Part shown: positions 4,477 through 5,427 of the stretch, in pieces
Numbering within the stretch: the stretch's first letter is position 1
Layout of the letters: every line of letters begins with the position of its first letter
Assembly (NCBI RefSeq): GCF_000787575.1
Contig: NW_012236516.1
Coordinates: forward strand, 284,922 to 321,832
Source: Acytostelium subglobosum
Lineage: Eukaryota
Direction: 5' to 3'
Length of the DNA: 36,911 nucleotides
Made by a program: the position numbers and the translations under genes
The notes under the pieces: model-generated
Database searches by the model: none
What the model saw: only the letters and a program-made list of their open reading frames with translations
What the model was told of the DNA's origin: nothing

Positions 4477-5427
4477 ATGTCATTCCCTTACGAGTACATC
4501 TTCAAGTATATCATCATTGGTGATATGGGTGTTGGCAAGAGTTGCCTGTTGCATCAGTTCACAGAGAATAAGTGTAGGTGACAATGATTGATTGATTGAA
4601 TGAATGAATGATCATAGTGATATCACTGGTACATGAACATACTTACTAACAATCAATCAATCAATCAAACATAATATAGTCGTCCCTGACAACCCACATA
4701 CCATTGGTGTAGAGTTTGGTACCAGAATAGTGGATGTAAATAATAAGAAGATTAAGCTGCAGATTTGGGATACGGCCGGACAGGAGAGATTCAGGGCTGT
4801 GACCAGAAGCTATTATAGAGGTGCCGCTGGTGCACTGCTGGTTTACGACATCACTCGCAGAATCACATACAACCATCTGACCAACTGGCTGACCGACGCG
4901 AGAAACCTCACCAACCCCAACACAGTCATCATGCTCATTGGCAACAAGAAGGACCTCGAGGGTCAGAGAGACGTCACCTACGAAGAGGCCAGCACTTTTG
5001 CCAAGCAGAACGGTCTTATCTTTGTTGAGTCCAGTGCTAAGACGTATGTTATATATCAATGGTTTGATTGAATGGTAGAGAGAATACTAACACAATGATG
5101 ATGTAGTGGAGAGAATGTAGAGGAGGCCTTTTTGAGAACAGCCAAGCTTATCTTCCAGAGTGTACAAGAAGGAAAGTAAGTAGACTAATGGGTTTGGGTC
5201 ATATCCGCTAACGCGGAGTGAACAACGAATGAACAAAGATCGCAACCACCTTGGATGTCGGCATGCGCTTTGCTTAACCTCCCGAACTATTGTGAACTAA
5301 CGAACAATCAATCAATCAAATCTCATCTATCTATAGCGTTGATTTGATTCCAGATGGCGGCGTCACAAAGAGCAACAACGTACCAGCCCTCGCCCCACCA
5401 GCAGAACAGAAGAAAGGATGTTGCTAA
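4477..5427 (+). CDS. RAB14: Rab14-family small GTPase, 4 exons
   Basis: Exons 4477..4573, 4680..5043, 5107..5175, 5337..5427. Donors are GTAGGT at 4574, GTATGT at 5044 and GTAAGT at 5176; branch motifs TACTAAC appear in introns 1 and 2. Spliced protein: [33 protein letters not shown]|[121 protein letters not shown]|[23 protein letters not shown]|VDLIPDGG...KKGCC*. It is near-identical over long stretches to metazoan Rab14 ([27 protein letters not shown]; [10 protein letters not shown]) and ends in a -GCC prenylation motif. Confidence 0.9.
4586..4668 (+). repeat. Inverted microsatellite pair inside Rab14 intron 1: (GATT)n(GAAT)n at 4586..4610 and (CAAT)n at 4650..4668
   Basis: The intron reads gtaggtgacaatGATTGATTGATTGAATGAATGAATGatcatagtgatatcactggtacatgaacatacttactaaCAATCAATCAATCAATCAaacataatatag. 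The two tracts are reverse-complementary, so they can form a stem of about 14 bp. Confidence 0.8.

What the first reader, a model, noticed from the sequence alone, without database searches (positions are those of the whole stretch)
4574..4679. Strand-specific (CAAT)n/(CAATCA)n tracts occupy the 3' ends of introns and UTRs, and predict gene orientation
On the transcribed strand, a run of CAATCAATCAATC.. repeatedly sits directly before the acceptor AG, where a polypyrimidine tract would normally be. Examples: Rab14 introns 1 and 3; P4-ATPase introns at 13150..13217 and 14238..14309; AP4B1 introns at 17912..17971 and 20011..20068; MTase intron 1; the fucosidase intron; the acceptor of MIF4G exon 2 (aatcaatcaag|). 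On the plus strand the motif appears as CAAT within plus-strand genes and as ATTG/GATT within minus-strand genes, with no exceptions among the introns I checked. This points to a CA-rich, pyrimidine-poor 3' splice-site element in this lineage, possibly bound by a specific protein. It also means the motif's orientation alone can annotate transcription direction, including in gene-poor stretches.
Basis: seen in the sequence. Interest (0 to 1): 0.6.

Follow-up and report, generated by a model that had tools for sequence, protein, structure and literature searches.

The report
Strand-biased CAAT repeats in amoeba introns
In this piece of the social amoeba Acytostelium subglobosum genome, short CAAT repeats and other guanine-free sequence fill the last part of many introns and the untranslated flanks of genes, mostly on the transcribed strand; this looks like a lineage-specific, C-enriched version of the usual G-free spacer before the 3' splice site, not a dedicated new splicing signal.

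Summary
The window is Acytostelium subglobosum LB1 nuclear DNA: seven of my spliced proteins equal deposited proteins exactly.

- **Abundance and polarity.** (CAAT)n is the dominant simple repeat, with 44 perfect runs of at least 10 nt in 36.9 kb. Of these, 35 are in the sense orientation of the nearest gene.
- **Position in introns.** Across 33 curated introns, the last 30 nt hold 153 CAAT-family 4-mers against 13 ATTG-family ones. The first 30 nt hold 43 against 40.
- **How common.** Only 9 of 33 introns carry a real CAAT run near the acceptor. Most runs lie in gene flanks, not introns.
- **Exceptions.** "No exceptions" is wrong. The exemplar intron 4574-4679 itself carries the opposite-polarity tract at 4585-4612.
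- **Not CAAT-specific.** CATT, CACT, CAAA, CAA and CA repeats, and non-repeat sequence, all show the same C>G sense skew.
- **Tail composition.** The branch-point-to-acceptor segment is about 5-6% G, 36% A, 30% C and 28% T, with no long pyrimidine run. The acceptor is the first AG after a yeast-like ACTAAC branch point in 21 of 23 introns.
- **Relatives.** Their intron tails are equally G-poor but U-rich.

Best reading: a G-free, AG-free spacer that gained C as the genome became GC-richer, with CAAT microsatellites as its commonest filler. A dedicated CAAT-binding factor is not excluded.

The parts
4574..4679 (+). Rab14 coding intron 1 (the finding's coordinates), 106 nt, GTAGGT...ATATAG
   Evidence: Read directly. 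The frame closes. The spliced protein is an exact match of deposited SAMD00019534_081250.
4644..4650 (+). TACTAAC branch-point consensus, 30 nt from the 3' splice site
   Evidence: ACTAAC occurs in 13 of 33 introns and WCTRAY in 19 of 33.
4650..4668 (+). [quoted passage not shown]
4585..4612 (+). Opposite-polarity tract TGATTGATTGATTGAATGAATGAATGA in the 5' half of the same intron. It is an exception to 'no exceptions' and can pair with 4650-4668.
   Evidence: Predicted 14-bp stem, MFE z = -2.3.
5305..5319 (+). Sense CAAT run in Rab14 intron 3 (5176-5336), 17 nt from the acceptor, downstream of AACTAAC
   Evidence: annotation-confirmed gene.
8392..8409 (+). Sense CAAT run abutting the acceptor (aatcaatcaAG) of MIF4G intron 1 (8342-8410)
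   Evidence: This exon structure is supported by Pfam MIF4G domain continuity. It is absent from the deposited gene model.
13153..13170 (-). Sense CAAT run 3 nt from the acceptor of P4-ATPase intron 13150-13217, after TACTAAC
   Evidence: The exon junction is supported by alignment to the Heterostelium homologue.
14239..14253 (-). Sense CAAT run abutting the acceptor of P4-ATPase intron 14238-14309 (in frame and stop-free)
   Evidence: A 24-codon gap at exactly this position against the Heterostelium protein.
15521..15531 (-). Sense CAAT run abutting the acceptor of P4-ATPase intron 15520-15598. The same intron has an antisense run at 15568-15579.
17916..17927 (-). Sense CAAT run 4 nt from the acceptor of AP4B1 intron 17912-17971
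   Evidence: The AP4B1 protein is an exact match of deposited SAMD00019534_081290.
31485..31500 (-). Sense CAAT run 6 nt from the acceptor of intron 31479-31565 in a membrane-protein gene
   Evidence: This gene model is not confirmed by the deposited annotation.
2506..2514 (+). Short sense CAAT run 22 nt from the acceptor of intron 2429-2536 (PH/F-box/RhoGAP gene)
5455..5517 (+). CAAT-rich tract in the Rab14 3' flank or UTR; an example of the majority class of tracts outside introns
16441..16459 (-). Sense CAAT run 64 nt upstream of the P4-ATPase start codon (5' flank or UTR)
5600..8280 (+). Stretch with no annotated gene that carries 8 CAAT runs of at least 10 nt, all in + polarity
   Evidence: The locus-tag numbering leaves no deposited gene here. 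No Rfam or tRNA hit.

Best explanation
The CAAT tracts are the commonest microsatellite form of a general, lineage-specific compositional rule in Acytostelium subglobosum: non-coding sequence on the transcribed strand is depleted of G and enriched in C.

[quoted passage not shown] That segment works as a G-free, and therefore AG-free and poorly structured, spacer. A strong yeast-like branch point (ACTAAC) is followed by the first downstream AG as the 3' splice site. A long uridine tract is therefore not needed.

**Origin.** Relatives have the same G-free tail but made of A and U. In A. subglobosum, whose genome is much GC-richer, about half of the U has become C while G stays excluded. This yields A/C/U sequence in which CAAT, CATT, CACT and CAAA units expand by slippage.

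**Polarity.** The sense polarity of the repeats follows from the exclusion of G on the RNA-like strand, not from recognition of the word CAAT.

**Status of each step.** Shown: anatomy, polarity, position, composition, the first-AG rule and the contrast with relatives. Inferred: that selection against G/AG, plus a possible transcription-linked T-to-C bias, is the cause, and that the tracts themselves are largely neutral filler.
For: **Not CAAT-specific**
- Sense to antisense counts for perfect repeats in non-coding DNA: CAAT 33:9, CATT 16:5, CACT 9:0, CAAA 8:2, CAA 13:6, CA 12:4.
- GC skew persists after masking repeats: introns -0.23, 5' flank -0.17, 3' flank -0.12.

**Gradient along introns**
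- CAAT-family against ATTG-family 4-mers: 43 vs 40 in the first 30 nt, 58 vs 14 in the middle, 153 vs 13 in the last 30 nt.
- In the 17 introns confirmed against deposited proteins, GC skew is -0.03 at +7..+30 and -0.54 at -30..-3.
- G is 4.9% between the branch point and -3.
- The G-free run before the acceptor has a median of 18 nt. The C-free control has a median of 4 nt.

**Branch point and first AG**
- The 3' splice site is the first AG after the branch-point motif in 21 of 23 introns. Only 9.5 would be expected with 5'-part composition.
- ACTAAC is present in 13 of 33 introns.

**Heterogeneous tails**
- Tails without CAAT runs are C-rich, CACT-rich or CATT-rich. One is U-rich.

**Comparison with relatives**
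- 15 inferred introns of Heterostelium, Cavenderia and Polysphondylium have -30..-3 composition A .34, C .11, G .02, T .53. Here it is A .36, C .30, G .06, T .28.
- Their flanks have G at about .09-.13, as here, but only half the C (against 52).
- CAAT runs number 2-4 per ~22 kb in relatives against 44 per 36.9 kb here.

**Link to transcribed regions**
- The asymmetry fades beyond about 400 nt from coding sequence.

**Structure**
- Most introns have almost no predicted structure.
Against: - CAAT-family 4-mers are still about 2-fold over-represented in intron tails that lack a run: 41 against 21.5 in mononucleotide shuffles, 2 of 2000 shuffles reaching the observed count. Composition alone therefore does not explain everything. 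Decayed repeats, or a real preference for UCAA/AUCA, remain possible.
- The extended word AATCAATCAAAC recurs 8 times, always in sense polarity.
- The sample is one 37-kb window with 33 introns. 16 of those introns rest on my own gene models.
- The introns of relatives were inferred by a crude solver.
- No RNA or protein-binding data are available.
- The cause of the C>G skew in the flanks (mutation or selection) is not resolved.
Confidence: 0.6

Rival explanations
1. One reading: (CAAU)n / CA-rich tracts are a sequence-specific 3' splice-site element. In this lineage they would replace the polypyrimidine tract and be bound by a dedicated protein or a re-tuned U2AF large subunit.
For: - Sense runs are concentrated at intron 3' ends: 7 of 13 end within 12 nt of the end, p=0.002.
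- Tails lack long pyrimidine runs.
- CAAT-family 4-mers are 2-fold enriched even in tails without runs.
- TCAA or ATCA occurs in 20 of 33 tails.
- AATCAATCAAAC recurs 8 times, always sense.
Against: - Only 9 of 33 introns have a run near the acceptor.
- Tails are heterogeneous.
- In 4 introns the tract lies far upstream of, or before, the branch point.
- Most tracts lie in flanks.
- All other G-free repeats share the polarity.
- Nothing here tests binding.
Confidence: 0.2
2. A purely mutational origin: transcription-coupled mutation or repair asymmetry (net T-to-C on the non-template strand) creates the C>G sense skew. Slippage then makes CAAT repeats, and splicing plays no role.
For: - The skew is present in flanks within about 400 nt of coding sequence and fades beyond.
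- Third codon positions also show C>G, skew -0.12.
- Against relatives, C has roughly doubled in flanks while G has not.
Against: - A transcription-wide bias should be roughly uniform along an intron. It is absent in the first 30 nt of annotation-confirmed introns (skew -0.03) and extreme in the last 30 nt (skew -0.54).
- Relatives with little flank skew already have G-free intron tails.
Confidence: 0.12
3. Intron-bridging hairpins: a 5' (GATT)n tract pairs with the 3' (AATC)n tract and brings the splice sites together. This would resemble the (GT)n/(AC)n introns of teleost fish or the zipper stems of yeast introns.
For: - Rab14 intron 1 forms a 14-bp stem between 4585-4599 and 4650-4668, z = -2.3.
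- P4-ATPase intron 15520-15598 has the same layout, z = -1.9.
- All three antisense runs lie in the 5' part of their introns.
Against: - Only 2 of 33 introns have both arms.
- Most tract-bearing introns have a predicted MFE near zero.
- Co-occurrence at this rate is expected by chance given the run frequencies.
Confidence: 0.04
4. Copies of a small mobile or introner-like element, or arrays of a DNA-binding-site motif (TTGA repeats), that happen to sit in introns and flanks.
For: - Five introns share the module ...CTGGAAYCATTCCA...CACTCACTCAATCAATCAAAC-AG.
- TTGA repeats are reported binding sites of Dictyostelium STATa. This is from memory and was not tested.
Against: - The alignment shows no similarity beyond the 13-nt palindrome and the low-complexity tail.
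- A double-stranded DNA site would not show 4:1 strand polarity or a 3' splice-site position effect.
Confidence: 0.04

Closest known systems
Polypyrimidine tract with AG-exclusion zone between branch point and 3' splice site (general spliceosomal intron anatomy)
   Same: - It occupies the same place, directly downstream of the branch point and up to the acceptor.
- It lacks AG: the 3' splice site is the first AG in 21 of 23 introns.
- G is strongly depleted.
   Different: - It is only 58% pyrimidine, and A is the commonest base.
- The median longest pyrimidine run is 4 nt and the longest U run is at most 4 nt.
- It is often a perfect tetranucleotide repeat.
Branch-point-driven 3' splice-site choice in species with strong ACTAAC consensus (hemiascomycete yeasts and S. 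pombe; Irimia and Roy 2008, PMC2483917)
   Same: - ACTAAC is present in 13 of 33 introns and WCTRAY in 19 of 33.
- The branch point lies 8-36 nt from the AG.
- The first downstream AG is used.
   Different: - A. subglobosum is not intron-poor: about 2.5 introns per gene in this window.
- The paper lists D. discoideum with a weaker consensus (18.7% ACTAAT). A. subglobosum was not in that study.
[quoted passage not shown] 2016, PMC4758236)
   Same: An amoebozoan in which simple repeats make up much of the intron body between canonical splice signals.
   Different: - The Physarum repeats are described as mononucleotide or pyrimidine-rich and long.
- Here the repeats are short A/C/U tetranucleotides in 60-110-nt introns.
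- That paper describes no strand or position analysis.
Transcription-associated strand compositional asymmetry (as described for mammalian genes; cited from memory)
   Same: The sign of the skew follows the direction of transcription and extends into the UTR-proximal flanks.
   Different: - The sign is opposite to the mammalian G+T excess on the sense strand.
- The skew is not uniform along introns.
CA-repeat or CA-rich intronic splicing regulators bound by hnRNP L, and (GT)n/(AC)n structured introns of teleosts (cited from memory)
   Same: Both are simple C/A-containing repeats inside introns that can influence splice-site use. One intron here can form the complementary-repeat stem.
   Different: - The unit is CAAT, not CA.
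- No binding data exist.
- The stem layout occurs in only 2 of 33 introns.

Membership tests
Polypyrimidine tract | [quoted passage not shown] | tested here: met
   9 of 33 introns have a CAAT run ending within 25 nt of the acceptor, mostly just after ACTAAC.
Polypyrimidine tract | Strongly pyrimidine-rich, with uninterrupted C/U (mostly U) runs | tested here: not met
   Pyrimidine fraction is 0.58 at -30..-3. The median longest pyrimidine run is 4 nt and the longest U run is at most 4 nt.
Polypyrimidine tract | Bound by the U2AF large subunit | not testable with these tools
   No binding data are available, and the U2AF genes are not in the window.
AG-exclusion zone | [quoted passage not shown] | tested here: met
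   21 of 23 introns with a YTRAY motif. 9.5 would be expected if the tail had the composition of the intron's 5' part.
Microsatellite (simple sequence repeat) | Perfect tandem copies of a 1-6 nt unit, found in many genomic contexts | tested here: met
   44 perfect runs of at least 10 nt across introns, 5' and 3' flanks and two exons.
Microsatellite (simple sequence repeat) | Copy-number polymorphism between individuals or strains | not testable with these tools
   Only one genome sequence is available.
Transcription-associated strand asymmetry | The sign of the skew follows gene orientation | tested here: met
   C>G on the sense strand for 13 of 13 genes. Motif polarity is correct for 12 of 13.
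Transcription-associated strand asymmetry | Roughly uniform along the transcribed non-coding sequence | tested here: not met
   In annotation-confirmed introns, GC skew is -0.03 at +7..+30 and -0.54 at -30..-3.
Complementary-repeat structured introns (teleost GT/AC type, yeast zipper stems) | Complementary tracts near both intron ends forming a stem, as a recurrent feature | tested here: not met
   2 of 33 introns have this layout. Only Rab14 intron 1 reaches z < -2 through it.
Introner-like elements | Many introns that are near-identical copies over their whole length | tested here: not met
   The alignment of 7 candidate introns shares only a 13-nt palindrome and a low-complexity tail, with 56% mean column identity. 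The sample is limited to one window.
CA-rich intronic elements bound by hnRNP L | (CA)n or dense CA clusters bound by hnRNP L | tested here: inconclusive
   CAAT supplies one CA per 4 nt. (CA)n itself is rarer: 12 sense and 4 antisense runs. Binding cannot be tested here.

The most novel reading that the evidence does not exclude
UCAA/CAAU repeats, with the recurrent extended word AAUCAAUCAAAC, are a genuine sequence-specific RNA element of Acytostelium. A lineage-specific RNA-binding protein, or an altered U2AF, would read it. The element would define 3' splice sites without a uridine tract and would also mark the sense strand of UTRs. Under this reading its polarity is a functional signal, not a by-product of G avoidance.
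Probability: 0.13. Interest if true: 0.7.

Novelty: new variant of a known kind. Interest (0 to 1): 0.38.

Why it matters
If it holds genome-wide, A. subglobosum would be a natural case in which the spacer between branch point and acceptor kept its G-free, AG-free character but lost its uridine richness. That separates two properties that normally go together in polypyrimidine tracts. It also bears on how much of 3' splice-site recognition depends on U2AF-type uridine binding and how much on the branch point plus the first AG.

There are practical uses too:
- The C>G and CAAT polarity is a cheap orientation cue for gene annotation in this genome.
- It already points to likely missing 5' exons of the MIF4G gene.
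- It points to a possibly transcribed 2.7-kb stretch with no annotated gene.
- It gives a handle on how a shift in genome GC content plays out asymmetrically on transcribed strands.

The genome paper describes simple repeats as 'not abundant' and does not mention this feature.

Tried and rejected
- **Home-made exon/intron dynamic programme.** The first passes fused neighbouring genes, swallowed AT-rich exons and invented in-frame introns. I corrected the models by hand using frames, a Heterostelium homologue, Pfam continuity and exact look-ups against deposited proteins. The G4 intron was moved from 11626-11689 to 11581-11671 as a result.\n- **Chimeric 3576-aa query.** It was meant to recover several deposited proteins at once and found nothing. 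Low-complexity words probably filled the candidate list. AUCAA fits the yUnAy consensus poorly, and most tract-bearing introns have a separate ACTAAC just upstream.\n- **Avoidance of cryptic GT/AG or upstream AUG as the reason for polarity.** Considered and dropped. The antisense repeat ATTG also contains no GT, AG or ATG.
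Full report
**Source and gene models**

The window is eukaryotic nuclear DNA with GC-rich exons and AT-rich short introns. A DEAD-box protein encoded at 32334-34304 is 100% identical to SAMD00019534_081340 of Acytostelium subglobosum LB1.

I built gene models with a simple coding-potential dynamic programme. 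It used only ORF signal, GT..AG ends and a donor consensus, and no intron 3' composition, so the later tests are not circular. I then curated the models by hand.

The result is 13 genes and 33 coding introns. Median intron length is 79 nt. Donors are GTATGT in 22 introns and GTAAGT in 6. Acceptors are TAG, CAG or AAG.

Support for the models:
- My spliced proteins for Rab14, G4, the AP-4 beta-like adaptin, a diphthamide-synthase-like protein, a membrane protein (TM2), a methyltransferase and the DEAD helicase are exact full-length matches of deposited A. subglobosum proteins. That confirms 17 introns.
- P4-ATPase junctions are supported by alignment to the Heterostelium album homologue. This includes a 24-codon gap exactly at intron 14238-14309.
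- Pfam domains run uninterrupted across the spliced junctions of Rab14, MIF4G, adaptin, methyltransferase and fucosidase.
- Retaining the intron would break the reading frame or add a stop in 27 of 33 cases.

**Checking the observation**

The coordinates 4574..4679 are exactly Rab14 coding intron 1. Its layout is GTAGGT, then TACTAAC at 4644-4650, then a CAAT run at 4650-4668, then 11 more nt to the AG.

The motif is far beyond chance:
- AATCAATCAAAC occurs 8 times against 0.01 expected.
- CACTCAATCAATC with up to one mismatch occurs 47 times against 0.23 expected.
- There are 44 perfect CAAT-unit runs of at least 10 nt in 36.9 kb.

Polarity relative to the nearest gene is 35 sense to 9 antisense (p=1e-4). 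Two of the nine lie where convergent 3' ends overlap and are ambiguous.

Inside introns the polarity depends on position:

| Intron segment | CAAT-family 4-mers | ATTG-family 4-mers |
|---|---|---|
| First 30 nt | 43 | 40 |
| Middle | 58 | 14 |
| Last 30 nt | 153 | 13 |

In the last 30 nt, 26 introns lean towards CAAT and 3 towards ATTG (sign test p=1.5e-5). The 17 annotation-confirmed introns alone give 62 against 7 in that segment (p=0.004).

Sense runs end within 12 nt of the intron end in 7 of 13 cases (p=0.002 against random placement).

**What is overstated**

- "No exceptions" is false. Antisense runs lie at 4585-4599 (in the exemplar intron itself), 5064-5071 and 15568-15579.
- Only 9 of 33 introns have a run within 25 nt of the acceptor.
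- In AP4B1 intron 20012-20068 and in methyltransferase introns 1, 3 and 4, the tract lies before the branch point or far upstream.
- 28 of the 44 runs lie in gene flanks.

**What the tracts are**

The polarity is not a property of CAAT alone. Written on the sense strand, perfect repeats in non-coding DNA split as follows:

| Repeat unit | Sense | Antisense |
|---|---|---|
| CAAT | 33 | 9 |
| CATT | 16 | 5 |
| CACT | 9 | 0 |
| CAAA | 8 | 2 |
| CAA | 13 | 6 |
| CA | 12 | 4 |

After masking all simple repeats, the sense strand still has C>G. The skew is -0.23 in introns, -0.17 in 5' flanks and -0.12 in 3' flanks. Third codon positions show -0.12.

In the flanks, the asymmetry is strong within 200 nt of coding sequence and gone beyond about 400 nt. 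Motif polarity in introns plus 200-nt flanks orients 12 of 13 genes correctly. Simple C>G orients 13 of 13.

**Intron 3' anatomy**

- Positions -30..-3 are A .357, C .298, G .062, T .284, which is 58% pyrimidine.
- Between the branch-point motif and -3, G is 4.9%.
- The median longest pyrimidine run in the last 40 nt is 4, and no U run exceeds 4.
- The G-free run ahead of the acceptor has a median of 18 nt. The C-free control has a median of 4 nt.
- ACTAAC occurs in 13 of 33 introns and WCTRAY in 19 of 33. By a looser YTRAY criterion placed 8-45 nt upstream of the acceptor, 23 introns have a motif, lying 8-36 nt upstream of the AG.
- In 21 of those 23, the acceptor is the first AG after the motif. 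Only 9.5 would be expected if the tail had the composition of the intron's 5' part.
- Tails without CAAT runs are heterogeneous: CCCCCACACCCACCATCAG, CACTCACTCAACCAAACAG, (CATT)n, and one classical U-rich tract. They share only the lack of G.
- CAAT-family 4-mers are still about 2-fold enriched in those tails, 41 against 21.5. Decayed repeats or a mild real preference for UCAA/AUCA therefore cannot be excluded.

**Comparison with relatives**

I fetched about 22-kb loci of Heterostelium album, Cavenderia fasciculata and Polysphondylium violaceum.
- They contain 2, 4 and 4 CAAT-unit runs respectively. Polarity was only partly assessed: the Cavenderia runs and 3 of the 4 Polysphondylium runs look sense, and the Heterostelium runs lie near or in plus-strand genes.
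- Their flank GC skew is -0.01, -0.09 and -0.16, against about -0.25 to -0.29 here.
- Fifteen credible introns inferred in those loci have -30..-3 composition A .34, C .11, G .02, T .53, often with long U runs.

So the G-free tail with about 35% A is shared. What is special to A. subglobosum is that roughly half of the U is replaced by C. This fits a genome that is 55% A+T, against 66-78% in other dictyostelids. G in the flanks is about the same as in relatives, while C is roughly doubled.

**Explanation**

The most economical account is a G-free, and therefore AG-free and weakly structured, spacer downstream of a strong branch point.
- The spacer is inherited from A/U-rich ancestors.
- It was enriched in C, but not G, as the genome's GC content rose.
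- CAAT, CATT, CACT and CAAA microsatellites then expand within this three-letter sequence.

The steep 5'-to-3' gradient within introns argues for a splicing-linked constraint. The milder skew in UTR-proximal flanks and at third codon positions leaves room for an added transcription-linked T-to-C bias. I put this at 0.6.

Rivals:
It is not required by the data and is disfavoured by tail heterogeneity and by the spread of tracts outside introns.
- A purely mutational origin (0.12) is contradicted by the lack of skew next to the 5' splice site.
- Bridging hairpins (0.04) occur in only 2 of 33 introns.
- Introner-like or DNA-site arrays (0.04) lack sequence-family support and do not explain strand polarity.

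**Known context**

- The A. subglobosum genome paper reports simple repeats as 'not abundant' (3.8%) and says nothing about intron composition or strand polarity.
[quoted passage not shown] This is the closest published amoebozoan parallel I found.
- Irimia and Roy list D. discoideum with a weak branch-point consensus (18.7% ACTAAT, 33% WCTRAY) and S. pombe with 21.6% ACTAAC. The 39% ACTAAC here is strong by comparison, though the sample is small.

I therefore class the feature as a new variant of known kinds: AG-exclusion or polypyrimidine spacer, strand-asymmetric composition, and intronic microsatellites.

**Limits**

- One window with 33 introns. Sixteen of them rest on my own models.
- No second locus of the same genome could be fetched.
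- No RNA or binding data are available.
- The introns of relatives were inferred with a crude solver.

Noticed in passing
919-931, 2551-2563, 3397-3409, 15551-15563, 16033-16045, 17949-17961, 31518-31530: A palindromic 13-mer, TGGAAT(C/G)ATTCCA with up to 1 mismatch, occurs at 7 loci against 0.27 expected. Most copies lie inside short introns 20-35 nt downstream of the 5' splice site, often followed by CACTCACTCAATCAATC. Its function is unknown; it could be a protein site or a remnant of a small element.
   Followed up: partly
8616-8758: MIF4G intron 2 is strongly structured (MFE -28.1 against -11.6 for shuffles, z = -6.5). The 5' splice site GTATGTCATTA pairs with TAATGACATAC, and an inner TTCCAGGAA / TTCCTGGAA inverted repeat forms a second stem. 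This would sequester the donor site.
   Followed up: partly
8286-8758: The deposited MIF4G gene (SAMD00019534_081260, 718 aa) starts at MSDQKAK (8858). Two upstream coding exons (8286-8341 and 8411-8615) extend the protein to 838 aa. The Pfam MIF4G domain then aligns from residue 17 (profile positions 4-202 of 203). The deposited model is probably N-terminally truncated.
   Followed up: partly
5600-8280: A 2.7-kb stretch with no deposited gene, convincing ORF, Rfam hit or tRNA. It carries 8 CAAT runs of at least 10 nt, all in + polarity, and a GTAAGT immediately followed by (TCAA)5 at 7139-7165. It may be a long 5' UTR with introns of the MIF4G gene, or an unannotated transcript.
   Followed up: partly
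4378-4464: A likely 5'-UTR intron of Rab14: GTAGGA, then a (GAT)n-rich 5' half, then TAACTTAC, then AATCAATCAAAC ATGTAG, ending 13 nt before the start codon. It has the same 5' G-tolerant, 3' G-free layout as the coding introns. It is unverified without RNA data.
   Followed up: no
12587-12665: The last P4-ATPase intron has two in-frame acceptors 9 nt apart (AAACAG|TATCAACAG|). The upstream one is the first AG after the ACTGAC motif and gives ...[10 protein letters not shown], which aligns better with Heterostelium (...YRNFFTQP). Neither variant matched a deposited protein.
   Followed up: partly
29309-29320 and 22402-22411: CAAT runs also occur inside coding exons, again in sense polarity, where they encode ...STQSINS... 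and ...SESIKI.... Six of the 33 introns are in frame and stop-free, and would read as Q/S/I/N/H/T-rich peptides if retained.
   Followed up: no
30743-30959: The intergenic region between two minus-strand membrane-protein genes holds four copies of TTGACATG/CATGTCAA (30743, 30793, 30928, 30952), several within TGATTGACATGT. It also holds most of the window's antisense-polarity CAAT runs (30290, 30496, 30778). It may be a promoter element cluster.
   Followed up: no
L002 10001-21038; L003 1047-11560: Local synteny is conserved. In Cavenderia the DEAD-box orthologue lies near an AP-4 beta-like adaptin gene. In Polysphondylium violaceum it lies next to a 2362-aa gene the size of the TROVE/NACHT/WD40 (TEP1-like) gene found in the window.
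   Followed up: no
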